The translations under genes and the position numbers were made by a program. This document shows, piece by piece, positions 1 through 41,289 of a stretch of 41,289 nucleotides of DNA. Numbering within the stretch: the stretch's first letter is position 1; every line of letters starts with the position of its first letter. The notes under the pieces were generated by a model. The model was not told the origin of the DNA. It was given only the letters and a program-made list of their open reading frames with translations, and searched no databases. The stretch is taken from sequence record KY705409, one strand, 5' to 3'. Source of the DNA: Escherichia phage vB_EcoM_ECOO78.

Positions 1-13
1 GGACCAATGCCCC
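1..13. repeat. Terminal direct repeat GGACCAATGCCCC (left copy); cos / terminal-redundancy candidate
   Basis: First 13 nt identical to last 13 nt of window (41277-41289). Confidence 0.6.
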
Positions 14-4990: not shown

Positions 4991-7299
4991 CAAAACGGTG
5001 AATTGTCATCTGGTCGCCGGTAATCCGGCTGCAACACCTTCGGCGGCAGGTTGAAGAACCGCCCGTTTTTCGTCTTGCGCGGTTCCTGCCCGGTCAGCTT
5101 GCGCAGCACGTTACTGCAATGCGTGGCCTGTGACTTGTTCGGCTTATCAAATCCGATTTCCTGCAACACCTGGCTGGCGGTATGTTCGCGGTAGGCGCTG
5201 ATGCGTTCGCTGCCCCACTCAAAGCGCGCCAGTATCATTTCCTCTACCGGGTCAATGGATTCGTGTTCCTTGTTGACGCCTTCCAGCATGGCTTCTTCAT
5301 CACGATCCAGCCACCAGCGTTCGCCGTCACGGTACAGTTGCGCCACTTCTGCCCATAACTGTTGCGTGTCGATGTCGTGGGCGTAGTTCACGCCGGTCAC
5401 CGGAATGGTCCACCAGCGAACGTTCCCGGTGTCATCGGCCAGGAAGTGTTTGGGGTTCACTGACGCAAAAAACACCGTTCGGCGCTGGTACTTCGATTCA
5501 AGCCGGTCATAAGGGCGGCGCAGCATGTCCACGTCAGAACTGATGAAGGATTTCAGCCTGGCAATGTCAGCCTTGCGGAACGTTGCATCTAGTTCGCCCA
5601 GCTCAACCATCCAGTGGCCAATCGCGGTGGTCACGCTGTCTTTGTTGCTAGGGTCGATGGTCGCGCCATCTTTCACCAGGTCGCGCATGGTAGGCGGCAG
5701 CAGTGCTTTGAACCAGGACGTTTTCCCCAATGACTGGTCACCCTGTAACACCAGCACGCCTTTGGACCAGAACCCTGTTGGCTTCATGACGGCAGCCACG
5801 GCAGAAATCAGCCAGCGGCGCACCATCATCAGCACCAGGCCACGGTCAAAGCCTTGCGGCGTGGTCAGGGTGTCAACCAGGTCATAAATGCGGCTGACGC
5901 CATCCCAGGGCCGTGACGTGATGAATTCAGCAGCCGGGTTGTAACGATTGGCCACGCCAATCAGCTTGATGTAATCGCCCACGTCACCTTTTGGCATACC
6001 GTTGCGGGCACACAGGCTGGAAACTTCCGCCAGTGAACAGTTGGCCGCAGCGTCAACGCCGTAGTCACGCCCTGGAATGGTCACCACCACATCTTTGCTG
6101 ATTTCGTTATAACGCGCCGTGATGCCGTACTGGTCCAGCAGCCATTCCAGGTTTTCCCAGGTGCTTAATGGCTTTTGCTGGTGGCTCATGTGCGGGTACA
6201 TGAACGGGTTGACCGTGGCATCCAGCGGCAGAAAGTTGTCATTTGCCGGTTCAGGTATCGCGTCGTTAATCTGGCGCTTAACTTCTGCCAGCCCTTGCAT
6301 ATTGTGCAGGTCGTTAAAGTCGGTCGGCTTGTCGCTCAGTGCTGCGAACTTCGGAACCACCAGCAGGCCACCGCATGTGGTTGCGGCCTGGCGCGCGTAG
6401 TGAACGCCATCGTTCTGCTTGCCATCTTCGTGCCACTGGTCGTTATCGGCTGCCACAACAATTGTTGCGCGTCCGAACTGCTGGCGCATCAGCTTGGCCA
6501 CGGTCGGCACGTTACCGGCATCGAACGCCACTACAACGCAGTAGCCTGTTGCCTGGTGGATTGACGCGCCGGTTGAATAGCCTTCACAGATGACAATGAC
6601 CGGGTTTGCGCCAATCGGCTTGCCGCCGATGACGTGGAAGCATCCACGCTTCTGGCCGCCAGGCAAATAATCACGGTCACGCCCTAGCTGTGGGTTTTCG
6701 TTCGGGAAGATGGCCTGCAAACTGGTGATCTGCCCGTCAATGTTACGCACAGGAACCAGCAGCGCGCCATCAATGCTGCGCTTTTCTGTCCAGAACCGCC
6801 CAACACGCAGGCCAAACGCCTGCACCTTCTTGCGCTGCAAATAGGGGTGTTCATCGCCGTCCAGTTCGGTGGCTGATTCCCATATGTTGCGCGCCTGTTC
6901 GGCTGCCTGCGCCATACGTTCGGCACGGCGCTGCTGCTCTGCCTTTTCTTCGGCTTCGCGCTTGCGCTTGCGTGCTTCGATTTCTTCCGCTGACAGCGGG
7001 GTGCGTTCTGCGTCGTTCAGGGAAAAGCCGAACTGCTGCGCCTCACCAATCAGGGTGCCAATGCCAATGCCGCCGTGACGCTTCACTGATTTCCAGGTGT
7101 CGCGTGCGTCTTTGCTGTTGTACTTGTCAGACTGGCGTGACCAGTCATTCCAGACGGTGAAACCGCCGTCGCCTAATTCCGATTTGACCGCCATCGCCAT
7201 GCGCACCCATGTTTCACGGTCGCAACCGGCGTCGATGTAGGAAAGTGCTTCTGCAATTTCCTGTTCGGTCAAATCCTTATAGTTTTGTTGTGCACTCAT
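4990..7299 (-). CDS. Primase-helicase (P4 alpha-like: primase C-terminal-like region, TOPRIM, D5/SF3-type P-loop NTPase)
   Basis: TOPRIM-like VIVICEGYSTGASI...VAADND; Walker A LVLQGDQSLGKTSW; 769 aa. Confidence 0.8.
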   Translation of the reverse strand: MSAQQNYKDLTEQEIAEALSYIDAGCDRETWVRMAMAVKSELGDGGFTVWNDWSRQSDKYNSKDARDTWKSVKRHGGIGIGTLIGEAQQFGFSLNDAERTPLSAEEIEARKRKREAEEKAEQQRRAERMAQAAEQARNIWESATELDGDEHPYLQRKKVQAFGLRVGRFWTEKRSIDGALLVPVRNIDGQITSLQAIFPNENPQLGRDRDYLPGGQKRGCFHVIGGKPIGANPVIVICEGYSTGASIHQATGYCVVVAFDAGNVPTVAKLMRQQFGRATIVVAADNDQWHEDGKQNDGVHYARQAATTCGGLLVVPKFAALSDKPTDFNDLHNMQGLAEVKRQINDAIPEPANDNFLPLDATVNPFMYPHMSHQQKPLSTWENLEWLLDQYGITARYNEISKDVVVTIPGRDYGVDAAANCSLAEVSSLCARNGMPKGDVGDYIKLIGVANRYNPAAEFITSRPWDGVSRIYDLVDTLTTPQGFDRGLVLMMVRRWLISAVAAVMKPTGFWSKGVLVLQGDQSLGKTSWFKALLPPTMRDLVKDGATIDPSNKDSVTTAIGHWMVELGELDATFRKADIARLKSFISSDVDMLRRPYDRLESKYQRRTVFFASVNPKHFLADDTGNVRWWTIPVTGVNYAHDIDTQQLWAEVAQLYRDGERWWLDRDEEAMLEGVNKEHESIDPVEEMILARFEWGSERISAYREHTASQVLQEIGFDKPNKSQATHCSNVLRKLTGQEPRKTKNGRFFNLPPKVLQPDYRRPDDNSPF

Positions 7300-7311
7300 A
7301 GAACCCCGATT

Positions 7312-7542
7312 TTATGGCCTGTTAGCGCGCCATATGGCCAGTGCGCGTTGTTCTAGTTCTTCGCGGGCTGTTGCGCCGCGCCGTTTTTCTATCGCTGCCA
7401 GCAGGGTGCGCCGTGCTTCAATGGTTGGCTGTTTCAGGACGTATTTGGCTTCGCATTCCAGCAACCATTCCCGGCTATCGCTCAACACATCGCGCCCATC
7501 GTGCAGCGTCACTGTGGTGGGCTGCCAGGTACAGGCGTTCAT
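7312..7542 (-). CDS. Hypothetical protein
   Basis: 76 aa ORF in operon context, overlapping neighbour. Confidence 0.4.
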   Translation of the reverse strand: MNACTWQPTTVTLHDGRDVLSDSREWLLECEAKYVLKQPTIEARRTLLAAIEKRRGATAREELEQRALAIWRANRP

Positions 7543-7727
7543 TTTGCTGCCTGCGCGTTCAGTTTCAGTTCAAGCAATTCAAGCTGGTGGGTCGGAATGA
7601 CTTTCCCGCCCTTACACCGCCAGATAAGCACCGTTTGTTCAGTGCGCCCAAGTAAACGGCCAACGTCGCGGCAGGTTAAGCCATGTTCAGCCATAATGTT
7701 GTGAAGTCGTTCGGTCCTTTCGTCCAT
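7539..7727 (-). CDS. Small HTH DNA-binding protein (Cro/XRE-like regulator candidate)
   Basis: Start MDERTERL with GAGG RBS 6-9 nt upstream; HTH-like LTCRDVGRLLGRTEQTVLIWR. Confidence 0.45.
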   Translation of the reverse strand: MDERTERLHNIMAEHGLTCRDVGRLLGRTEQTVLIWRCKGGKVIPTHQLELLELKLNAQAAK

Positions 7728-7807
7728 AGTAATAGCCTCGTAATAACAATGCGCCCATAGTACAGGGCGCATTTCCGAAAGTAAATATCTTTTGAAATAA
7801 TCTTACT

Positions 7808-9980: not shown

Positions 9981-10000
9981 GCCGGTGAAATAATAATACC

Positions 10001-10042
10001 TTTACTTATGGAAATATCGCCAATGGTTTAAACCTATCAATA
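10001..10042 (-). promoter_or_regulatory. Conserved bipartite upstream element TATTGATAGGT-N16-ATTTCCATAAGTAAA (copy 2)
   Basis: Minus-strand sequence read directly; matches element upstream of methyltransferase. Confidence 0.5.
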
Positions 10043-10051
10043 CTTCACTAT

Positions 10052-11467
10052 TCATCGCTTAAACCTTCTTCCGCCCATCTTCGCTATGGCCCAACCTGAT
10101 GGGTTCGGCAGCCCGCGTTTCATCGCCAGGGCGGTCAGTGCGCCAATATCCTTGCAAGCGTCCTCCTCGCGTTTCATTTTGGCGCGCAGGCTTTCTTTGG
10201 CGCGTTCGTCCATCTCTTTCAGTTCGCCTTCCGCCACTTCAATTTCTTTGGCTTCGGCCTGTAGTTCCTTCTGGCAGTGCGGGCACTTCGGCGGCAGTGG
10301 TCGGCGGATGGCGTTGAAACAGCCTTTGCAGATGACTGGCGGCGGTGGACCACCAGCACTGCTGGACTTGCTGCCGCTATCATCGCCAGACAGTGACCAT
10401 TCCCGTTCATCGTCAGGGAAGCCATGACGCAGCGCATTGCCTGCATGGTCCAGGATGATGGCGGTTTTGCCTTTGGACGGTCGCAACACGCGGCCATCTT
10501 TCTGCAAAACCAGCGACAATGATTGTGTGGGCTGCGCGTCAATCAGGCAGTCAATCGTCACGTCAGTCTGTGCGATAGCTGACAGGTCGAAACCTTCACC
10601 GAACAGCGACACGTTGAAAATCACATCCAGGTTGTCGTTGGCATAGTCCTGAATGATGCGCTTGCGTTCCGCCTTATCGGTGCCGCCATCCAGGTGCGCG
10701 GCGCGGATGCCTGAATCAATGAATGCCTGCGTTAAGTGGCGGCTGTGCGCGATGTTGACCGCAAAGCCAACCGTTTTCATGCCCCTGGCGTATTTCAGCC
10801 AGTGGCTGATGATGTTGCCGGTTAGTTTCGGCTTATCCATCTTCTCGGCGGTTTCTCCTTTTGAGAAATCGCCCATCTGTTTGCGTACACCCTTCATGTC
10901 AGGGATGTCCGGGCAGAACATGCGATAATCAGACAGGTGGCCGTTATCCATCAGCCAGCGCACCGATGGCCCCAACACGATGTCATCAAAGTGGTCATCC
11001 AGGCCGGTGCCGTCCAGGCGCTTTGGCGTGGCTGACAGGCCGATTACATACGCGCCATTCTCGAACAGCCAGGCGTTGACGCGCGCCCATCCAGCCGCGC
11101 CACAGTGGTGCGCTTCGTCCATGATGGCCAGCTTAGGAGCTGGCAGGGTGTGCAGGCGGTTTTTCAGGGTGTCGATGCTGCACACCTGCACCCCGGCGCG
11201 CAGGTTCATGGGATAGCCTGCGGCAATAAAGCCGTGGTCAATGCCGAACTTCCTGAATGTCAAACTGGTCTGTAATACCAGTTCAGCGCGGTGGCAAATA
11301 AACCACACCTGCTGGCCTTTGGCCGATGTTTCCCCAGCCATGTATGACGCCAGCGCAGTTTTGCCCGCGCCTGTTGGTGCCTGCAATAACACGCGGCGGT
11401 TGCGCCGCATAGAAAGGCGCGCCTTATTGATAATGTCGGATTGATAGTCCCTAAGTATTACGCCCAT
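10052..11467 (-). CDS. Superfamily-2 DEAD/DEAH-box DNA helicase
   Basis: Walker A LLQAPTGAGKT, DEAH box MDEAHHC, motif III GLSATP; C-terminal CxxC...CxxC zinc-finger-like segment. Confidence 0.85.
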   Translation of the reverse strand: MGVILRDYQSDIINKARLSMRRNRRVLLQAPTGAGKTALASYMAGETSAKGQQVWFICHRAELVLQTSLTFRKFGIDHGFIAAGYPMNLRAGVQVCSIDTLKNRLHTLPAPKLAIMDEAHHCGAAGWARVNAWLFENGAYVIGLSATPKRLDGTGLDDHFDDIVLGPSVRWLMDNGHLSDYRMFCPDIPDMKGVRKQMGDFSKGETAEKMDKPKLTGNIISHWLKYARGMKTVGFAVNIAHSRHLTQAFIDSGIRAAHLDGGTDKAERKRIIQDYANDNLDVIFNVSLFGEGFDLSAIAQTDVTIDCLIDAQPTQSLSLVLQKDGRVLRPSKGKTAIILDHAGNALRHGFPDDEREWSLSGDDSGSKSSSAGGPPPPVICKGCFNAIRRPLPPKCPHCQKELQAEAKEIEVAEGELKEMDERAKESLRAKMKREEDACKDIGALTALAMKRGLPNPSGWAIAKMGGRRFKR

Positions 11468-11504
11468 AATTATCGTTCATTCGCCATCATTTAAAGTATT
11501 CGCA

Positions 11505-11534
11505 ATTGTATGTTACTACATGGCGACGTTGCAA
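11505..11534 (-). promoter_or_regulatory. Candidate sigma70-type leftward early promoter (-35 TTGCAA, 18-nt spacer, -10 TACAAT)
   Basis: Hexamers read on minus strand; inverted repeat TTACTAC/GTAGTAA overlaps spacer and -35. Confidence 0.4.
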
Positions 11535-11548
11535 CCAGTAGTAATGTT

Positions 11549-11560
11549 CATTGACGTCAA
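11549..11560. promoter_or_regulatory. Perfect 12-bp palindrome ATTGACGTCAAT (candidate operator)
   Basis: Self-complementary 12-mer in the divergent intergenic region. Confidence 0.4.
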
Positions 11561-11659
11561 TCAAGCCGCGATGTGCAAAAAACGCATAGCTGATGTACAG
11601 CTAAGGTTTGTTGATTAGCGAGCGTGACGCTGATCTAAACAATGTTAGTTACAAATAAG

Positions 11660-11689
11660 TTGACAGTATAACAACACGTCAGCCATAAT
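11660..11689 (+). promoter_or_regulatory. Candidate sigma70-type rightward early promoter (-35 TTGACA, 18-nt spacer, -10 CATAAT)
   Basis: ttgacagtataacaacacgtcagccataat, about 50 nt upstream of the exonuclease start. Confidence 0.45.
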
Positions 11690-11740
11690 TCACCGCAGTT
11701 AATCCGAATTCATGTTAAATAATAATTGCGAGGTAACATA

Positions 11741-12883
11741 ATGAAACCAGGAGTTTACGAAGGTATTCCCAACGCTGAATACCACGGCGGACCAGGCATC
11801 AGTAAATCTGGCCTGGATTTGGTGCACCGCAGCCCGATGCACTACAACGCTGTTGTGACTGCTGCTAATGACCGCACGCCAACACCAGCGCAGGAAATCG
11901 GCACGGCTGTGCATATGGCAATTCTTGAACCGGAAGAATTCGCAAAAACCTATTGCCTGGCGCTGCGCCGTCCTGATGTGCCTGATGCTATTGATGACCG
12001 TGAAGTGCTGGTGGAAATGGTCAACAAGCTGAACGAAGGCCGCCTGCCTAAGCTGCTGACTGGTGGCAACAAAGACGAACTGGTTGAACGCATCCTGGAA
12101 AACCAGCCTGTTGAAACCTGGACTACTGAACAGCTTAACGCGATGAAAGCGCCAGACCTGAAAGAAATCATCAACCAGTTGAATATTGACCGTCCTGGCA
12201 AACTATCCACCAGCGGCAGTCGTCATGAGCTGGCCAACCTGCTGCGCGCCAACGGCGTTGAAGTCACACTGTGGTCAGATGTGCTGGAAGAATGGCAGCG
12301 CAATAACAGCGAACGCAAAGTGCTATCACCGGAAGCGTTTGAACAAATTTTTGCCATGCGTGACGCGGTAATGAATCATCCGGCAGCGTTCGCTATCCTG
12401 CACCACGTCAAAGACATCATTGGTGACTTGAAAACCACCGAAGATGCCAGCCCGGAAGGGTTCGCAAAATCAATCGCCAACTGGCGCTATGACGTGCAAC
12501 ACGCATACTACATGGACGGCACGCGTCTGGCTCTGGAACAGGGCAAGTGCACGCCTCCGCACGAAGGCAAAGCAGAATTATCAGTTTACTGGACTGATCC
12601 GGTGACCGGTGTTCTGTGCCGCTGCCGCCCTGATTTCTGGCGTGGTTATCCTAAACACTTTGCGTTTATCGCCGTTGAGAAAAAACCGCCTTACGCAGTT
12701 GGTGTTTATGTACTGGATAGCGAAGGCGTAGAAATTGGCCGCGCACAATACCAGCATGATTTGCGTGTCTACGCTGAATGCGTGCGCACAGGTGTTTGGC
12801 CTGGATACGGCGATAAAATCCAGACCATCAGCCTGCCAGCGTGGCACGCCAACAAAAACGCCCACCTGGTTGGTGCGGCTTAA
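11741..12883 (+). CDS. PD-(D/E)xK recombination exonuclease (RecE/exonuclease VIII-like) with inserted SAP/HeH-like motifs
   Basis: Start MKPGVYEG with GAGG RBS 8 nt upstream; N-terminal YHGGPGISKSGL...RSPMHY motif; precedes Sak4-like gene. Confidence 0.6.
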   Translation: MKPGVYEGIPNAEYHGGPGISKSGLDLVHRSPMHYNAVVTAANDRTPTPAQEIGTAVHMAILEPEEFAKTYCLALRRPDVPDAIDDREVLVEMVNKLNEGRLPKLLTGGNKDELVERILENQPVETWTTEQLNAMKAPDLKEIINQLNIDRPGKLSTSGSRHELANLLRANGVEVTLWSDVLEEWQRNNSERKVLSPEAFEQIFAMRDAVMNHPAAFAILHHVKDIIGDLKTTEDASPEGFAKSIANWRYDVQHAYYMDGTRLALEQGKCTPPHEGKAELSVYWTDPVTGVLCRCRPDFWRGYPKHFAFIAVEKKPPYAVGVYVLDSEGVEIGRAQYQHDLRVYAECVRTGVWPGYGDKIQTISLPAWHANKNAHLVGAA

Positions 12884-12910
12884 TTTTCATCACCTAAGAG
12901 ACTAAAAACA

Positions 12911-13900
12911 ATGGCAGTAATTAATATTCGTAAGGCAGAACGTGAAGGCGCGCGCCTGGTCATCGGCCTGGCAGGTATCAGCGGCAGCGGCAAAACCCTG
13001 TCAGCACTTATGCTGGCATATGGCCTGGCCAACGGTGACGGCACAAAGGTTGGCTTTCTCGATACTGAAAACCGCCGCGGCTCACTGTATGCCAGTGATG
13101 ACACTTATGAAAAAATCCAGGAATCACTTGGACTGAAAGAACGCCCTGACGCGTTTTGGATTGGCGATTTAGAACCGCCTTTCAGCCCGCAGCGGTACAT
13201 TGACGCCATCCGCGAATTTGAACAGGCAGGCGTTGAAGTGCTGGTGATTGATAGCATTTCGCACGAATGGGAAGGAACAGGCGGATGCGAAGAAATCGCC
13301 ACCCTGGCCAACCCGATGAAGCCGCAGTGGAACCGTGCGAAGGCTGAACACAAGCGATTCATGAACGCGTTGCTGCAATCCAACATGCACATCATCTGCT
13401 GCATCCGCGCACGTGAAAAAGTGAAACTGGTGAAGGTCAACGGTAAAACGGAATATGAACCGCAAGGCATCATGCCGGTGACGGAAAAGAACGTGATGTT
13501 TGAAATGACCGCCAGCCTGATGATGTGGGATTCTGGCAGCGCGCAGCAGGTCATGAAGTGCCCGGAAGAATTGCGCGGCATCTTAGGCCGTGAAACTGGC
13601 TACATCAGCGCACAGGACGGTTTATCGCTGCGTCAGTGGGTTCAGGGTGGCAACAAGTTAGATCCGAAGGTGGAAGCCTACCGCAACAAGCTGCGCGGCG
13701 TTACCGAACAGGGTGAGCAGTACACGCAGGAATGCTGGGACAAAACCCCACCAGCAATTCGCAAAAAGCTGGGCGATGAATTCAAACAATCATTGTTGCA
13801 AGCCGCCCGCGCATATGACGAACAGCGCGCCAACGCAAACGGCGATGCGCAGGACGTTGATGATTTAAACAGCCAGGTGATGGGCACCGGCGCACAGTAA
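12911..13900 (+). CDS. Sak4-like RecA-fold ATPase (AAA_24 family single-strand annealing/recombination protein)
   Basis: Walker A GLAGISGSGKT; Walker B-like VLVIDSISHEWEG; adjacent to exonuclease and SSB. Confidence 0.65.
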   Translation: MAVINIRKAEREGARLVIGLAGISGSGKTLSALMLAYGLANGDGTKVGFLDTENRRGSLYASDDTYEKIQESLGLKERPDAFWIGDLEPPFSPQRYIDAIREFEQAGVEVLVIDSISHEWEGTGGCEEIATLANPMKPQWNRAKAEHKRFMNALLQSNMHIICCIRAREKVKLVKVNGKTEYEPQGIMPVTEKNVMFEMTASLMMWDSGSAQQVMKCPEELRGILGRETGYISAQDGLSLRQWVQGGNKLDPKVEAYRNKLRGVTEQGEQYTQECWDKTPPAIRKKLGDEFKQSLLQAARAYDEQRANANGDAQDVDDLNSQVMGTGAQ

Positions 13901-13913
13901 GAAAGGGTAAAAA

Positions 13914-14141
13914 ATGGCACAACCGGCACAGAAACAAAGCACGTATCTGACGCCACAGGAACTGGTGCTGCGCTGGAATGGCGCAGTTACCACCGGAACC
14001 CTGGCGAACTGGCGCAACAAAGGCAAAGGGCCAGCCTATACGAAATTTGGCTCACGCGTTCGCTACTCCATCACCAGCGTGGAAGCGTATGAAGCAAAAC
14101 ACATGATTGGAGCAAACGACAATGACACGACCACCGGCTAA
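13914..14141 (+). CDS. Small HTH DNA-binding protein (AlpA/excisionase-like family)
   Basis: YLTPQELVLRW...TLANWRNKGKGPAYTKFGSRVRY pattern. Confidence 0.45.
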   Translation: MAQPAQKQSTYLTPQELVLRWNGAVTTGTLANWRNKGKGPAYTKFGSRVRYSITSVEAYEAKHMIGANDNDTTTG

Positions 14142-14517
14142 CGGATATGAATCACTGCGCGATGTACTTGACCGGGCATTTGCGCAGGCTGCCAGTGGCA
14201 AAGGCCACGAACGTCACGCGGTAAACAAGCCGTTTGACCAGCAGCCCATGCAAAAACTGATTGACCTTTACGGGCCAGGGTTCGCACTCGGCCAGGCAGC
14301 GAAGAAAGCGCAGGAATCACAGCGCCTTCCAGCGGGCCGCGATGTGGCGGAACTGTTAGGCGCAATAAACTACCTGGCTGGAGCGGTCATCGCGCTGGAA
14401 CGTGGCCGCCAGCCGGTAGCTGGTAACGACAACGAACAGCCGCGCGATTGCTGCCCTGTGTGCCAGCACCAGGACGGCTTCCACCATCCAAAATGCACGG
14501 TGGCAGAACATGGCTGA
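14122..14517 (+). CDS. Hypothetical protein
   Basis: Start MTRPPANG with GGAG 9 nt upstream; 131 aa; C-terminal CCPVCQH...H motif. Confidence 0.45.
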   Translation: MTRPPANGYESLRDVLDRAFAQAASGKGHERHAVNKPFDQQPMQKLIDLYGPGFALGQAAKKAQESQRLPAGRDVAELLGAINYLAGAVIALERGRQPVAGNDNEQPRDCCPVCQHQDGFHHPKCTVAEHG

Positions 14518-15225: not shown

Positions 15226-15293
15226 GTCCGTTGTAAGTAACTTGAAATAGAGTTACACTATCCCCCGGACATAAAACATAGGGGGTAGTAAAA

Positions 15294-15719
15294 GTGGAAA
15301 GTAAAAAGTGCTTTAAGTGCGGGGAGGTTAAAAGCCTCTCCGATTTTTATAAGCATAAAGGGATGGCTGATGGCCATCTTAACAAGTGCAAAGATTGCAC
15401 CAGAAGTGATGCCAAGTCACACCGACTTGAAAATATTGACCAGATACGCGCTTACGACCGTAAACGCGGAAACCGTCAAGATCAATCATACGTCAAAAAT
15501 TACCGCCAGCAGTATCCAAACAAATACCGCGCACATACGATGGTAAACAACCATTTGCGATATGGGAATATCACAAAGAAACCATGCGAAATCTGCGGCA
15601 GTGAGCAATCAGTTGCCCATCACGACGATTACTTAAAGCCGCTTGATGTTCGTTGGTTGTGTCAGGCGCATCACAAGCAATGGCACGCTGCAAACGGTGA
15701 AGGAAAGAACGCAGTTTGA
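15294..15719 (+). CDS. HNH endonuclease family protein
   Basis: Cys pairs CFKCG...CKDC and C-terminal CEICG...AHHDDY...HH motif; GTG start with GGGGG RBS; AT-richer than flanks. Confidence 0.6.
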   Translation: MESKKCFKCGEVKSLSDFYKHKGMADGHLNKCKDCTRSDAKSHRLENIDQIRAYDRKRGNRQDQSYVKNYRQQYPNKYRAHTMVNNHLRYGNITKKPCEICGSEQSVAHHDDYLKPLDVRWLCQAHHKQWHAANGEGKNAV

Positions 15720-15725
15720 CCAAAG

Positions 15726-15751
15726 AAAAACCCCGCCGAAGCGGGGTTTTG
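15726..15751. terminator. Intrinsic terminator after rightward early operon
   Basis: aaaaaccccgccgaagcggggttttgtg: 6-bp GC stem, 4-nt loop, T-tract. Confidence 0.65.
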
Positions 15752-16228
15752 TGTCACGTGACGCTGTGATGCGAGATACAGATCACCTGCCTTATTGGAA
15801 TCACTTGTCGGGTAAGTTCCAGTCTGTGCGAATGTCGCACTGGGATGCGCTTTCACGTTGCGAGGTAACACCCTGGGGGTTGGAAGTGTTCGCAAAAGCG
15901 CATCACGGTGCGTTGTGGTGCTGTGCATCAGCGCTTCCTTCGTCGCCTTGGTGAGCTGCAACCACACCAACTAGCATTTGGATTTACCACAACGTAAAGA
16001 GCACTTTCATCGCTGCAACATGACGGTAAATAGGATTCACTGCATCACGTACAAAATGCTCTTAACTGTTGCGTGCCGTCCTTTCACGGCGGTCATCGTG
16101 TATCGCTCGACAGCGTGACTCTCTATAACTGACAATATAATCCTATATCACTCCAGTGCATTCTGCAACCATATTTACCATTTATTCATCTCCTCGATCA
16201 TCTTCTGTAGGTAGTCCACTCTGTAGGT

Positions 16229-16257
16229 TACAGGTTCGATTCCTGTAGGGGTCGCCA
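16229..16257 (+). other. tRNA 3'-end-like fragment (T-arm, acceptor 3' strand, CCA); attP-core or tRNA-like RNA candidate
   Basis: acagg-TTCGATT-cctgt T-arm, then aggggtc, g, CCA; no complementary 5' acceptor strand or D/anticodon arms upstream. Confidence 0.4.
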
Positions 16258-16261
16258 CCCA

Positions 16262-16288
16262 ATAGAAAGCCCGCCAGGTGGCGGGCTG
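16262..16288. terminator. Hairpin agcccgcc-aggt-ggcgggct; terminator for end of late operon and/or for the tRNA-like unit
   Basis: 8-bp GC-rich stem; U-rich stretch on minus strand (uuucuauu) after the hairpin. Confidence 0.45.
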
Positions 16289-16291
16289 TGG

Positions 16292-16636
16292 TTAGTTTCT
16301 GAATTGCAGGTAACGCATGTGGATTAGGTGATCCACAAAGGTGGAATCATAGCCAGGCACGCAATTTAGTTCATGGTGGAACCTCTCCGCATCGGTGGCT
16401 GGACGAACTGCATTGATTCCGCGCATATTCACTTCCGGGCAACCTTCGCCCTTACCTTCCGCAATCCTCACGTGTAACCGGCAACCGTTATCACCAGGCT
16501 CGTCATCCAAAGATTGCCACACCTGATAGCCACAGCAGTAGCCAACAACGTCACCACGGCTGGCAGTTTTGTACACGATACAATCACCAATTTCCGGCAC
16601 ATATGGCATGTTATTTTCTTGCTTGAATGCTTTCAC
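16292..16636 (-). CDS. Hypothetical Cys-rich protein
   Basis: 114 aa ORF, GTG start with GGGGAG RBS; last gene before terminator. Confidence 0.45.
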   Translation of the reverse strand: MKAFKQENNMPYVPEIGDCIVYKTASRGDVVGYCCGYQVWQSLDDEPGDNGCRLHVRIAEGKGEGCPEVNMRGINAVRPATDAERFHHELNCVPGYDSTFVDHLIHMRYLQFRN

Positions 16637-16645
16637 AATCTCCCC

Positions 16646-16936
16646 TTACGCCGTCAGTTCGGCGGGTTTGTCTTTGGTTAGTTGTTCCTGTTCATGGTCC
16701 GGGTCGCCGTCGATTGGCAGCAGGTTTTGCGCCCGTACCTGCGCAACTTCATTACCAGGCAGCAGGCCATAAACCCGCCACCAGCGTTCGACTGGTTCAC
16801 CTAGCGCCATAGCCAGCAATTCTGACTCCCGATAGCTGGCAAGCCCAATCAGGCGCACGCACTTGCCGTTCCCTTCCGGTCTGGCGCGCAAACCGTAAAC
16901 CAGCGCCAGGCCACCGGCTTTCAGTTCGCCTTTCAT
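16646..16936 (-). CDS. Hypothetical protein
   Basis: Start MKGELKAGG with GGTGA RBS; ATGA overlap with upstream gene stop. Confidence 0.45.
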   Translation of the reverse strand: MKGELKAGGLALVYGLRARPEGNGKCVRLIGLASYRESELLAMALGEPVERWWRVYGLLPGNEVAQVRAQNLLPIDGDPDHEQEQLTKDKPAELTA

Positions 16937-17175
16937 ACGATCACCTTTGCGCTCAGGTATCCGCAACGTAGTTTCAGCTTTACTGTTTTGCTTTGGTTCT
17001 TGTACGGGTAATCACCGCCAGCTTTTATTGAAGCATAACCACCGCTGGAAAATTCAGGCGAGCGGGTTAAAGCCTTCACATCCTTGTAAAAAAGTTCTCG
17101 CAGCTTGGCTTTTTCCATCACCTTTTCGGTGTGCATCCTGGTACGTAGTGTGTTGAATTCGTTATTTGTCATCAT
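16933..17175 (-). CDS. Hypothetical protein
   Basis: 80 aa ORF overlapping ParB-like gene end. Confidence 0.4.
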   Translation of the reverse strand: MMTNNEFNTLRTRMHTEKVMEKAKLRELFYKDVKALTRSPEFSSGGYASIKAGGDYPYKNQSKTVKLKLRCGYLSAKVIV

Positions 17176-18043
17176 TCACCCCACCAACGTAGTCAGCCAC
17201 CAGCGCCATGAATTCACGCACCACGCCAGCAGGTGCGCGCAGGGTCATGGATTCGTCAGGCTCGGCATCTTCCAGCCGGTCATCGCTGTGGACCAGTTCG
17301 ATTTGCACAGCCAGGTCAGCCAGGCGCGTCAGCTTGTCTTTGCCGAACGGTGGCTGGATGGCTTCCGTCTTGGACTTAGGCGCTTTCGGTGCCTTCGGTT
17401 CGGTGAATTTCTTTGTTACTTTATCCTTGCCAGCGGCTTTGGCTTCTTCCAGCGCCTGTGCGGCCACGGCTTCGGCTTCGGTGCCGTGCTGGCGGGTTAG
17501 TTCAGTGGCGGTCACGTAGGACATCTGGCCACCGCGTACCATGTCTTTGATTGGTTCCGGGCACTCAGCCAGGGCCAGCATGTTGGCCACGTCTGACGGG
17601 CTGCGCTTCACCTTCTTGGCTATCTCGTCATTGGTCCAGCCCTGCGCTTTCAGGCGCGCATAGGCTTTGGCGCGTTCCAGCGGTTCCAGCGGCTTGCCCT
17701 GGCTGCTGGTGACCATCAGCGCGATTTTGTCAGCCTCACTGGTGCCGGTGATGTCGTTCACTTCCAGGCGCAGTTCCAGGCCGGTTTCTGCGGCCATCTT
17801 GGCACCAGCAAAGCGGTGGTGGCCGTCAATCACCTTGATGCCCTGCTGCGTCACTTCCACGGTCAGCGGCGGCACATATTCACCGGCCAGGTACGCATCG
17901 CGGAATTCTTCAACGTGCGCCTGGTCCACGTCGCGAATGTTGTAGCCATCTTCCACATACAGTTCAGCCAGCGGCACCCAAAACACCTTGCGCGGCGTTG
18001 CTGCGGTTTGTTTTGATTTATAAAGTTGCCCGATAGTAGCCAT
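17162..18043 (-). CDS. ParB-like nuclease-domain protein (ParB/Srx fold N-terminal domain)
   Basis: Motif KVIDGHHRFAGAKMAA; Lys/Ala/Pro-rich central linker; no ParA partner in window. Confidence 0.65.
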   Translation of the reverse strand: MATIGQLYKSKQTAATPRKVFWVPLAELYVEDGYNIRDVDQAHVEEFRDAYLAGEYVPPLTVEVTQQGIKVIDGHHRFAGAKMAAETGLELRLEVNDITGTSEADKIALMVTSSQGKPLEPLERAKAYARLKAQGWTNDEIAKKVKRSPSDVANMLALAECPEPIKDMVRGGQMSYVTATELTRQHGTEAEAVAAQALEEAKAAGKDKVTKKFTEPKAPKAPKSKTEAIQPPFGKDKLTRLADLAVQIELVHSDDRLEDAEPDESMTLRAPAGVVREFMALVADYVGGVNDDK

Positions 18044-41276: not shown

Positions 41277-41289
41277 GGACCAATGCCCC
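41277..41289. repeat. Terminal direct repeat GGACCAATGCCCC (right copy)
   Basis: Identical to nt 1-13. Confidence 0.6.

What the first reader, a model, noticed from the sequence alone, without database searches (positions are those of the whole stretch)
11468..11725. Divergent early control region with a 12-bp perfect palindrome but no nearby repressor gene
The 258-bp region between the leftward helicase gene and the rightward exonuclease gene holds candidate divergent promoters (leftward -35 TTGCAA / -10 TACAAT; rightward -35 TTGACA / -10 CATAAT), a 7-bp inverted repeat TTACTAC-N18-GTAGTAA overlapping the leftward promoter, and a perfect palindrome ATTGACGTCAAT (11549-11560). Unlike lambdoid immunity regions, no CI/Cro pair sits here and no integrase is present, so lifestyle (virulent, phage-plasmid or temperate with unusual control) is unresolved.
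Basis: partly seen in the sequence, partly recalled or inferred. Interest (0 to 1): 0.45.

Follow-up and report, generated by a model that had tools for sequence, protein, structure and literature searches.

The report
Phage early promoters; repressor cassette missing
This is the ordinary back-to-back early promoter region of a known group of E. coli phages (Jilinvirus, ep3-like), at the spot where temperate-looking relatives keep their cI-like repressor gene; this phage has an unrelated repressor-free stretch there and only a stump of its integrase, so it is a lytic descendant of a temperate line, and the palindrome is probably chance.

Summary
The motifs exist, but the palindrome is at 11550-11561, not 11549-11560. 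The true intergenic region is 11468-11740, because exoVIII starts at ATG 11741.

Only the rightward promoter stands out. TTGACA-18-CATAAT is the single 11/12 sigma-70 match in the 41-kb window (0.17 expected) and is invariant in all relatives. The 12-bp palindrome and the 7-bp inverted repeat are at chance level. The palindrome is degenerate in two relatives and deleted in two others.

The window is a Jilinvirus. The region is 100% identical to phage vB_EcoM-ep3.

Relatives HeidiAbel, PT1 and Arya carry a 765-bp cassette at exactly this locus. It holds four ACGGTTA operator-like repeats and a 180-aa HTH+S24 cI-like repressor. The window has about 160-244 bp of unrelated DNA there instead, with its own leftward promoter.

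The window keeps only the last 23 codons of the integrase, fused to the 3' part of a tRNA-Arg. No related prophage was found in 5,426 complete E. coli genomes.

The lifestyle question is therefore largely answered: an obligately lytic, ex-temperate phage with unrepressed early promoters. Published work (PMC11990801) already notes the loss of cI and integrase in this genus.

Low interest. A 9/10 FNR-box match over the palindrome is an untested lead.

The parts
10052..11467 (-). First gene of the leftward early operon: SF2 DNA helicase (471 aa).
   Evidence: PHROG 16 at E 1e-98. Pfam ResIII, DEAD and Helicase_C. Annotated as helicase in ep3, HeidiAbel and others.
11468..11740 (.). True helicase-exoVIII intergenic region (273 bp). 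It is the only divergent early control region in the window.
   Evidence: It is 100% identical to vB_EcoM-ep3 over 11480-11723.
11494..11655 (.). Core of the 'type A' module. This DNA is unrelated to the cI cassette that occupies the same place in HeidiAbel, PT1 and Arya. BLAST-defined limits are 11480-11723.
   Evidence: Alignment. BLAST breakpoints at w11479 and w11724. Smith-Waterman scores against the 765-bp cassette are no better than shuffles. Found only in ep3, Alux-21, ECO1230-10, KA2-1 and two IMG/VR contigs. No match in E. coli genomes, plasmids or JGI metagenomes.
11660..11689 (+). Rightward early promoter for the exoVIII operon: TTGACA, 18-bp spacer, CATAAT. An AT-rich stretch lies upstream at 11637-11659. 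The transcription start is predicted near 11696.
   Evidence: 11/12 match. It is the only such match in the whole window, against 0.17 expected. Both hexamers are invariant in all six type A sequences and the spacer nearly so. Type B phages have TTGACA-18-TATACT at the same position. Distant Iiscvirinae also have a TTGAC(A) promoter upstream of exo.
11505..11534 (-). Candidate leftward promoter for the helicase operon: -35 TTGCAA (11534-11529), 18-bp spacer, -10 TACAAT (11510-11505). The transcription start is predicted near 11498.
   Evidence: 9/12 match. The -10 is invariant in type A. The -35 varies: GTGCAA in ECO1230-10 and L026, ATTCAA in KA2-1 and L024. It lies inside the type A-specific DNA, so this module must supply the helicase promoter (inference).
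11513..11544 (.). 7-bp inverted repeat TTACTAC-N18-GTAGTAA bracketing the leftward -35.
   Evidence: Present. Chance-level, P about 0.45. In register it keeps 6/7 pairs in KA2-1 and L024 and 5/7 in ECO1230-10 and L026, with no compensatory pairs.
11550..11564 (.). 12-bp perfect palindrome ATTGACGTCAAT (11550-11561). It overlaps a 9/10 match to the FNR-box consensus TTGAT-N4-ATCAA (TTGACGTCAATCAA, 11551-11564), centred about 60 bp upstream of the predicted leftward start.
   Evidence: Unique in the window. Not above chance. Not conserved as a palindrome. FNR-like matches with at most one mismatch: 3 in the window against 1.26 expected. ECO1230-10 and L026 keep a different 9/10 version, TTGATGTTCAGCAA. 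KA2-1 and L024 lack the site.
11577..11620 (.). Best-conserved non-promoter block of the module: AAAAAACGCATAGCTGATGTACAGCTAAGGTTTGTTGATTAG. It includes a 6-bp hairpin at 11587-11603. Function unknown.
   Evidence: Nearly invariant in six type A sequences. The hairpin is flagged as terminator-like on both strands, but one stem pair is broken without compensation in ECO1230-10, KA2-1 and L026. No significant RNA structure: z -1.1 and -0.8, covariation term +0.59. No credible Rfam match: one hit, snoRNA sR35, 13.6 bits against a gathering score of 60, E 0.93.
11741..12883 (+). First gene of the rightward early operon: exonuclease VIII-like PD-(D/E)XK nuclease (380 aa). RBS GAGG at 11730-11733.
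   Evidence: PHROG 412 at E 4e-92. Pfam DUF3799. The ep3 annotation starts at the equivalent ATG.
16154..16222 (-). Integrase remnant: the last 23 codons only, with an internal stop.
   Evidence: tblastn with the HeidiAbel and KA2-1 integrases: residues 380-402, 65% identity, E 5e-5 to 7e-5. blastn to the integrase 3' end. The internal stop was read from the sequence. ep3 shares the same junction.
16221..16254 (+). 3' part of a tRNA-Arg gene (the likely attP core), joined to the integrase stump 4 bp away. About 1.49 kb present in HeidiAbel is missing. A short CTGTAGGT repeat sits at the junction.
   Evidence: Window 16221-16294 matches HeidiAbel L001 14464-14538 at 97%. The HeidiAbel tRNA-Arg is at L001 14424-14497. 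ARAGORN finds no tRNA in the window. Junction sequence.
7539..7772 (-). Small HTH protein in the leftward operon (77 aa, or 62 aa from the conserved internal ATG). It is a candidate feedback regulator and is present in relatives both with and without cI.
   Evidence: PHROG 14341 'transcriptional repressor' at E 1e-18. Weak Pfam HTH_23. No PDB or NCBIfam relative.
13914..14141 (+). Small HTH_17 (MerR/excisionase-like) protein in the rightward operon (75 aa).
   Evidence: Pfam HTH_17 at E 1.4e-5. PHROG 66 'excisionase and transcriptional regulator' at E 4e-5.

Best explanation
The region is the back-to-back early promoter region of an ep3-like Jilinvirus, at the locus where cI-bearing relatives keep their immunity cassette.

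How it works. Host sigma-70 RNA polymerase starts the rightward exoVIII / AAA_24 / HTH_17 / DksA-like / SSB operon from a near-consensus promoter (TTGACA-18-CATAAT, 11660-11689). It starts the leftward helicase / resolvase / HTH / primase operon from a weaker promoter (TTGCAA-18-TACAAT, 11534-11505).

What is missing. In HeidiAbel, PT1 and Arya a 765-bp cassette sits between the same two genes. It holds four ACGGTTA/TAACCGT operator-like repeats and a 180-aa HTH_3 + Peptidase_S24 cI-like repressor. In this phage that cassette is absent. About 160-244 bp of unrelated DNA stands in its place and supplies its own leftward promoter. There is no repressor gene, no repressor operators and no conserved small ORF.

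Consequence. Together with the 1.49-kb deletion that left only 23 integrase codons fused to a tRNA-Arg 3' fragment, the early promoters are expected to fire unrepressed on entry, and the phage is obligately lytic. It is a descendant of a temperate lineage.

The palindrome and the 7-bp inverted repeat are most likely chance features of one sub-allele, not operators.

Shown: sequence anatomy, conservation, module replacement, integrase remnant, and absence of prophages in complete E. coli genomes. Inferred: promoter activity, lack of repression, and the direction of evolution.
For: - Identity: 98.9% to ep3 over 10000-14500, and 100% over 11480-11723.
- The cI-like gene lies exactly between helicase and exoVIII in HeidiAbel, Arya and PT1. 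HeidiAbel and PT1 also carry an integrase and tRNA-Arg.
- The cI-like protein is HTH_3 + Peptidase_S24.
- ACGGTTA repeats occur in type B and are absent from the window's region.
- Module breakpoints and lack of homology between the two modules.
- The rightward promoter is the only 11/12 match in the window and is invariant; an equivalent promoter exists in type B and in distant relatives.
- Integrase stump, tRNA fragment, and the junction shared with ep3.
- No hit for the helicase-exo-AAA region in 5,426 complete E. coli genomes.
- An independent cI frameshift in other members shows that this module decays repeatedly.
- Literature: ep3 and ECO1230-10 are reported as lytic and lacking lysogeny genes (PMC5754474). 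cI and integrase are described as 'deteriorated or absent' in several Jilinvirus phages, and no temperate behaviour has been observed (PMC11990801).
Against: - No transcription data. The leftward promoter is only 9/12 and its -35 is not conserved.
- Three relatives (KA2-1, L024, L026) combine the repressor-free module with a full-length integrase. The module alone therefore does not prove a lytic lifestyle.
- Two small HTH proteins of unknown target are conserved and could regulate these promoters.
- A 44-bp block (11577-11620) is conserved without explanation.
- The direction of the module swap (loss versus gain of cI) is not proven. The two types are interleaved on the helicase tree.
Confidence: 0.8

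Rival explanations
1. The palindrome and/or the inverted repeat are operators for a repressor encoded elsewhere, such as the 62-77 aa HTH protein at 7539-7772 or the HTH_17 protein at 13914-14141. The phage would then be temperate, or a phage-plasmid, with unusual control.
For: - The inverted repeat brackets the leftward -35.
- Small HTH proteins are conserved in both operons.
- KA2-1, L024 and L026 have this module together with an intact integrase.
- A ParB-HTH protein is present.
Against: - The palindrome and the inverted repeat are at chance level.
- The palindrome is degenerate or deleted in 4 of 7 type A genomes.
- The inverted repeat shows no compensatory change.
- The integrase in this window is reduced to 23 codons and the tRNA/attP is truncated.
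- No Pfam match in the two ORFs scanned beside the ParB-HTH gene, so no ParA was identified there.
- No prophage in 5,426 E. coli genomes.
- Isolates of this genus form clear plaques.
Confidence: 0.07
2. Host-factor control. The site TTGACGTCAATCAA (11551-11564) is an FNR/CRP-family box in a class I position (about -60) that boosts the weak leftward promoter, for example under anaerobic gut conditions.
For: - 9/10 match to TTGAT-N4-ATCAA.
- ECO1230-10 and L026 differ at four positions of the 14-bp site yet keep a 9/10 match, TTGATGTTCAGCAA.
- The leftward -35 is poor and variable, as is usual for activator-dependent promoters (the general point is inference).
Against: - Three such matches occur in the window against 1.26 expected by chance, and 15 of 100 shuffles do as well.
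- The site was found after the fact, against one of many possible consensus sequences.
- An 11-bp deletion removes it in KA2-1 and L024, which keep the same -10.
- The predicted transcription start is uncertain by a few bases.
Confidence: 0.08
3. The region is simply a deletion scar, meaning decayed leftovers of the cI gene itself.
For: - The published description calls cI 'deteriorated or absent'.
- The left flank of KA2-1, L024 and L026 keeps TCGGTTAT, which resembles the first ACGGTTA repeat of type B.
- MAFFT places the palindrome opposite ATTGATGGCAAT inside cI.
Against: - Local alignment of four type A sequences against three cI cassettes, both strands, scores no better than shuffles.
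- tblastn with three cI proteins finds nothing at this locus.
- The module carries its own conserved -10 and a conserved 44-bp block, and it exists as three sub-alleles in different lineages.
Confidence: 0.04
4. The conserved centre (11577-11620) encodes a small RNA or a terminator, or acts as a replication origin.
For: - A terminator-like hairpin at 11587-11603 has a T-run on the minus strand.
- A 10/12 plus-strand promoter-like site at 11441-11470 could drive a roughly 135-nt transcript.
- The block is strongly conserved.
Against: - Fold z-scores are -1.1 and -0.8.
- The alifold covariation term is positive, and only one pair shows a double change.
- A stem pair is broken in three sub-allele members.
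- No credible Rfam match: one sub-threshold hit, E 0.93.
- The direct repeats GCTGATGTA and GCTGATCTA are not conserved in ECO1230-10.
- The 11441 site lies in helicase codons 1-9, so its conservation is explained by coding.
Confidence: 0.03

Closest known systems
The same intergenic region in Escherichia phage vB_EcoM-ep3 (Jilinvirus ep3), and its variants in Alux-21, ECO1230-10 and KA2-1
   Same: 100% identical over 11480-11723 to ep3. 93%, 80% and 81.5% identical to the other three. Same flanking genes, promoters and organisation.
   Different: Nothing relative to ep3 in this region. Elsewhere the window differs from ep3: only 30% of 15230-17170 is shared, and the window carries an HNH endonuclease gene there.
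cI-like repressor locus of Jilinvirus HeidiAbel (Bas97), Salmonella phage PT1 and Enterobacter phage Arya, described in PMC11990801 (S5 Fig)
   Same: Same position between helicase and exoVIII. Homologous flanks on both sides (about 92% over the helicase side and about 82% over the start of exoVIII against HeidiAbel). The same TTGACA-18-xATAxT promoter lies in front of exoVIII.
   Different: Those phages have a 765-bp cassette with four ACGGTTA repeats and a 180-aa HTH+S24 repressor. The window has unrelated DNA with no gene and no such repeats.
Lambdoid immunity region (PL/OL - cI - PRM/OR/PR - cro)
   Same: It works like the early-promoter part of that region. It is the single divergent region from which both early operons leave, it uses host sigma-70 promoters, and it sits where relatives carry a LexA-like cleavable repressor.
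   Different: No cI, no cro-like first gene (the first rightward gene is a nuclease), no repeated operators, no integrase. It is not a member of this family.
Lytic derivatives of temperate phages that lost the repressor, such as mycobacteriophage D29 relative to L5, or lambda vir and clear-plaque deletion mutants (own knowledge, not checked here)
   Same: A virulent lifestyle through loss of repressor function in an otherwise temperate-type genome. Remnants of lysogeny genes are still detectable.
   Different: Here the operators went together with the repressor and were replaced by unrelated DNA. The integrase is also deleted. The repressor-free allele circulates among several natural lineages rather than being a single mutant.

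Membership tests
Jilinvirus repressor-free ('type A') helicase-exoVIII control region | Lies between the divergent SF2 helicase and exoVIII genes of an Iiscvirinae/Jilinvirus genome. | tested here: met
Jilinvirus repressor-free ('type A') helicase-exoVIII control region | Sequence homology to the ep3 / ECO1230-10 / KA2-1 intergenic module. | tested here: met
   100% to ep3 and 80-93% to the others.
Lambdoid-type immunity region | A repressor gene (cI-like, HTH + S24 or equivalent) adjacent to the divergent promoters. | tested here: not met
   No conserved ORF of 20 aa or more in 11468-11740. tblastn with three cI proteins finds nothing at the locus.
Lambdoid-type immunity region | Repeated operator sites overlapping the early promoters. 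| tested here: not met
   No repeated motif. The ACGGTTA repeats of cI-bearing relatives are absent. The single palindrome and the inverted repeat are at chance level and not conserved.
Lambdoid-type immunity region | A Cro-like small HTH gene as the first gene of one early operon. | tested here: not met
   The first genes are helicase (leftward) and exoVIII (rightward).
Temperate phage (integrative) | An intact integrase and attP. | tested here: not met
   Only codons 380-402 remain, with an internal stop. The tRNA-Arg is truncated to its 3' 34 nt. ARAGORN finds no tRNA.
Temperate phage (integrative) | Matching prophages in host genomes. | tested here: not met
   No hit in 5,426 complete E. 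coli genomes. The only prophage-like relatives among species-representative genomes are in Cupriavidus, Caballeronia and a few MAGs. Draft genomes were not searched. PMC11990801 cites one E. coli draft contig.
Phage-plasmid | A partition system (ParA plus ParB) and a plasmid replication module. | tested here: inconclusive
   A ParB-HTH domain protein lies at 17162-18043, and the two adjacent ORFs scanned gave no Pfam match, so no ParA was identified beside it. The same gene is present in all Jilinvirus phages. The window was not scanned exhaustively for ParA, and no experimental test was possible.
Sigma-70 promoter (rightward, 11660-11689) | -35 and -10 hexamers near consensus with a 16-18 bp spacer, correctly placed upstream of an operon, and conserved. 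| tested here: met
   11/12 match, unique in the window, invariant, with positional equivalents in type B and in distant relatives.
Sigma-70 promoter (rightward and leftward) | An experimentally mapped transcription start. | not testable with these tools
   No transcript data available.
FNR/CRP-family binding site | A match to TTGAT-N4-ATCAA at an activating position, conserved, and enriched over chance. | tested here: inconclusive
   9/10 match centred near -60. Kept at 9/10 in ECO1230-10 and L026, deleted in KA2-1 and L024. Not enriched genome-wide.
Structured RNA / Rfam family | Significant fold stability, covariation, or a covariance-model match. | tested here: not met

The most novel reading that the evidence does not exclude
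The repressor-free module is not just a vacancy. It could be an alternative, horizontally exchanged control cassette that puts the early-left operon under a host regulator (the FNR-like box) or under one of the conserved small HTH proteins. Relatives that combine it with an intact integrase (KA2-1, L024, L026) might then still be temperate by a cI-independent route.
Probability: 0.07. Interest if true: 0.45.

Novelty: already known. Interest (0 to 1): 0.15.

Why it matters
The result mainly settles a question. The puzzling 'control region without a repressor' is explained by comparison with sister phages that still carry the repressor cassette at the same place, and by the integrase stump. This supports treating ep3-like Jilinvirus phages as obligately lytic, which is relevant to their proposed therapeutic use.

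It also makes one testable prediction. Because the ACGGTTA repeats are gone, these phages should ignore the cI of HeidiAbel or PT1 supplied in trans, and so behave like natural 'vir' variants.

More broadly, the genus shows stepwise and repeated decay and exchange of lysogeny modules: cI replaced, cI frameshifted, integrase deleted at different breakpoints. The published BASEL phage-collection paper (PMC11990801) has already outlined this picture.

Tried and rejected
- Remnants of cI in the window. tblastn with three cI proteins, and Smith-Waterman of four type A sequences against three cassettes with shuffles, found nothing.
- Source of the type A DNA. No match in phages beyond the six known carriers, nor in E. 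coli genomes, plasmids, IMG/VR beyond L026, or JGI metagenomes.
- Small ORFs. The 32-aa (11520-11618, plus strand) and 25-aa (minus strand) ORFs are disrupted by indels in ECO1230-10, KA2-1 and L024.
- Structured RNA or a terminator. Not supported.
- Iterons or an origin. The direct repeats are not conserved.
- A repeated genome-wide motif. The conserved block GGTTTGTTGATTAG occurs once, even allowing 3 mismatches.
- Identity of the 62-77 aa HTH protein. No PDB or NCBIfam relative.
- LexA-box and CRP-box readings of the region, by eye only. Spacing or half-sites do not fit, and this was not pursued.
- Two 8-mers (11500-11507 with 11724-11731, and 11509-11516 with 11733-11740) are each inverted at the same 216-nt offset. 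This looked non-random, but the pairs are not co-conserved in ECO1230-10 or KA2-1 and cannot form a hairpin, so it was set aside.
Full report
**1. What is in the sequence**

The palindrome ATTGACGTCAAT lies at 11550-11561, one base to the right of the stated coordinates.
- The inverted repeat is TTACTAC (11513-11519) and GTAGTAA (11538-11544), 18 bp apart.
- The leftward promoter candidate is TTGCAA (11534-11529), 18 bp, TACAAT (11510-11505).
- The rightward candidate is TTGACA (11660-11665), 18 bp, CATAAT (11684-11689).
- The helicase ORF begins at 11467 on the minus strand. The exonuclease is annotated in relatives from the ATG at 11741, behind GAGG at 11730-11733, not from the TTG at 11726. 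The intergenic region is therefore 273 bp.

**2. Is it more than chance?**

- The rightward promoter is. It is the only 11/12 match to the sigma-70 consensus on either strand of the 41,289-bp window, where a first-order Markov model expects 0.17.
- The leftward promoter is 9/12, which is unremarkable.
- The window has nine 12-bp perfect palindromes against 13 +/- 3 expected. The chance of at least one in 258 bp of this composition is about 0.12. A 7-bp inverted repeat with a spacer of up to 30 bp is expected in 45% of such regions.
- On statistics alone, neither dyad is notable.

**3. What the phage is**

- Window 10000-14500 is 98.9% identical to Escherichia phage vB_EcoM-ep3 (Jilinvirus, Iiscvirinae). 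It is 80-92% identical to ECO1230-10, Alux-21, HeidiAbel (Bas97), PT1, KA2-1 and Arya.
- 11480-11723 is 100% identical to ep3.
- The flanking genes are an SF2 helicase and an exonuclease VIII-like PD-(D/E)XK nuclease.
- Leftward genes: helicase, Holliday-junction resolvase, small proteins including a 62-77 aa HTH protein (PHROG 14341), a Toprim/VapE-type primase, and a methylase.
- Rightward genes: nuclease, an AAA_24 protein, an HTH_17 protein, a DksA-like protein and SSB.
- This is the one divergent junction between the two early/replication operons.

**4. The key comparison**

- In HeidiAbel, PT1 and Arya a 543-bp gene lies exactly between helicase and exoVIII, on the rightward strand. Its 180-aa product has HTH_3 and Peptidase_S24 domains, so it is a LexA/cI-type cleavable repressor.
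- Upstream of that gene are four copies of ACGGTTA/TAACCGT, in two opposed pairs.
- HeidiAbel and PT1 also carry a 403-aa integrase next to a tRNA-Arg, downstream of SSB.
- Aligning the loci shows that homology with the window stops about 12-25 bp beyond the helicase start codon (w11479-11493). It resumes at the -35 TTGACAG of the exoVIII promoter, and clearly at w11724.
- Between these points HeidiAbel has 765 bp (operators plus cI). The window has 244 bp by BLAST, with a core of 11494-11655.
- The two inserts share no detectable similarity. Local alignment scores for four repressor-free sequences against three cassettes, on both strands, fall within the shuffle distribution. tblastn with three cI proteins finds nothing at the locus. 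ACGGTTA does not occur in the region.
- The region is therefore an alternative, repressor-free module ('type A'), not a decayed cI.

**5. Conservation within type A**

- Seven genomes carry type A: the window, ep3, Alux-21, ECO1230-10, KA2-1 and two IMG/VR contigs, L024 and L026.
- Invariant or nearly so: the whole rightward promoter and its leader; the leftward -10 with its flanks; and a 44-bp central block (11577-11620).
- The leftward -35 varies: TTGCAA, GTGCAA or ATTCAA.
- The 12-bp palindrome is intact only in the window, ep3 and Alux-21. It reads ATTGATGTTCAG in ECO1230-10 and L026, and an 11-bp deletion removes it in KA2-1 and L024.
- In register, the inverted repeat keeps 6/7 pairs in KA2-1 and L024 and 5/7 in ECO1230-10 and L026, with no compensatory change.
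- The two small ORFs in the region are broken by these indels.
- RNA folding of either strand is not unusual (z -1.1 and -0.8). The alignment fold has a positive covariation term. Rfam gives only one sub-threshold hit, sR35, at E 0.93.

**6. The exoVIII promoter is older than either module**

- Type B phages have TTGACA-18-TATACT (11/12) at the same distance from the exoVIII RBS, overlapping the end of cI.
- Distant Iiscvirinae from metagenomes also show a TTGAC(A) promoter in front of the nuclease gene.
- At the same locus, Pseudomonas/Burkholderia-type relatives carry yet another gene. It is 133-157 aa, with a winged-helix match of the IclR/MarR kind, and usually comes with an integrase. Others have short empty gaps.
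- The locus is thus a general slot for exchangeable regulator cassettes in this subfamily.

**7. Lifestyle**

- The window keeps the last 23 codons of the integrase (16154-16222, minus strand; 65% identical to HeidiAbel residues 380-402, with an internal stop).
- Four base pairs away (16217-16220 match neither partner) begins the 3' 34 nt of the tRNA-Arg and its downstream flank (16221-16294, 97% to HeidiAbel).
- About 1.49 kb present in HeidiAbel is missing, and a short CTGTAGGT repeat sits at the junction.
- ARAGORN finds no tRNA in the window.
- ep3 shares this junction. Arya has a different, larger integrase remnant.
- Three further contigs have a cI split by a frameshift next to an intact integrase.
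- Neither the control region nor the 3.9-kb helicase-exo-AAA segment matches any of 5,426 complete E. coli genomes. A species-representative genome scan found prophage-like relatives only in Cupriavidus, Caballeronia and a few MAGs.
- Published work agrees. ep3 and ECO1230-10 are described as lytic and without lysogeny genes (PMC5754474). The BASEL paper states that integrase and cI-like genes are intact in HeidiAbel and PT1 but 'deteriorated or absent' in other Jilinvirus phages, that no temperate behaviour has been seen, and that the temperate lifestyle appears to be lost in different representatives (PMC11990801).

**8. How the region most likely works**

- Host RNA polymerase fires both promoters on entry. 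With no repressor and no operators, nothing holds them off, and the phage grows lytically.
- Promoter activity and the absence of regulation are inferences.
- The two small HTH proteins are present in relatives with and without cI. They could give Cro-like feedback, but their targets are unknown. Neither has a PDB or NCBIfam relative.

**9. Module history**

- On helicase nucleotide identity, the E. coli type A phages (window, ep3, Alux-21, ECO1230-10) are closer to the cI-bearing HeidiAbel, PT1 and L077 (92-93%) than to the type A phages KA2-1, L024 and L026 (84-86%).
- Within type A the sub-alleles also cross the flank phylogeny. ECO1230-10 shares its variant with L026. KA2-1 shares the 11-bp deletion with L024. 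Yet the L024 and L026 helicases are 97% identical.
- This points to exchange of the module by recombination in the conserved flanks. It does not show which state came first.

**10. A lead that remains open**

- The palindrome overlaps TTGACGTCAATCAA (11551-11564), a 9/10 match to the FNR box TTGAT-N4-ATCAA. It is centred about 60 bp upstream of the predicted leftward start.
- ECO1230-10 and L026 differ at four positions of the 14-bp site yet keep a 9/10 match, TTGATGTTCAGCAA.
- Against it: such matches occur three times in the window where 1.26 are expected, which is not significant. The site is deleted in KA2-1 and L024. The comparison was made after the fact. I give it about 8%.

**11. Verdict**

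- The palindrome-operator idea is not supported.
- The 'missing repressor' is explained by comparison with sister phages and is already in the literature.
- The region itself is identical to that of a phage published in 2015. Low interest. Novelty: already known.

Noticed in passing
window 15294-15719 (+): A 141-aa HNH / endonuclease VII-like gene (PHROG 2340, E 1e-40) sits after SSB, where HeidiAbel has a 227-aa protein (its KA2-1 counterpart is annotated SprT-like) and ep3 has a 672-bp gene. Its closest DNA relatives are a copy at a different genome position in Alux-21 (87%) and endonuclease genes of Vibrio phages (about 68%). It looks like a mobile homing endonuclease.
   Followed up: partly
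window 1-13 and 41277-41289: The same 13 bases (GGACCAATGCCCC) occur at both ends of the window. This suggests an assembly overlap of a circular or circularly permuted genome.
   Followed up: no
window 11500-11516 and 11724-11740: Two adjacent 8-mers (TCGCAATT, TATGTTAC) each have an exact reverse complement at the same 216-nt offset (AATTGCGA, GTAACATA). One pair falls at the leftward -10 and the other at the exoVIII RBS. The order is swapped, so no hairpin can form. The pairs are not co-conserved in ECO1230-10 or KA2-1.
   Followed up: partly
window 11441-11470 (+): A 10/12 promoter-like site (TTGATA-18-CATAAT) on the plus strand overlaps helicase codons 1-9. The same site exists in HeidiAbel (L001 7441-7470), where it would point towards cI. 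Its conservation may be due only to coding.
   Followed up: no
L076, L077, L078 (Logan contigs), locus 5774-6315: Jilinvirus genomes from three samples have the cI-like gene split into a 75-aa HTH ORF and a 104-aa S24 ORF, next to an intact 403-aa integrase. This is an independent route of repressor inactivation.
   Followed up: partly
L010, L019, L020, L022, L025, L029, L031, L032, L042: between helicase and exoVIII: More distant Iiscvirinae, including Burkholderia phage Mica, carry an unrelated 133-157 aa gene at the same locus. The L010 protein matches HTH_IclR/MarR. Most of these genomes also have an integrase. This is a third kind of regulator cassette in the same slot.
   Followed up: partly
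proteins P0001-P0049: All 49 clusters of the cI-like repressor family have longest contigs of 44.9 kb or less, and many are 40-45 kb. Even cI-bearing members are sampled as phage-sized contigs and not inside chromosomal contigs.
   Followed up: no
L013, L018, L023: helicase-exo gaps: Distant relatives with short, gene-free gaps and no integrase still show CGGTnAnTATnACCG-like dyads near the helicase start. These are reminiscent of the ACGGTTA repeats of the cI-bearing Jilinvirus phages.
   Followed up: no
L004 (Klebsiella phage KA2-1), L024, L026: These genomes combine the repressor-free module with a full-length integrase (413 aa in KA2-1; 83% identity to HeidiAbel in L024 and L026). No additional repressor candidate is evident in the KA2-1 annotation.
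   Followed up: partly
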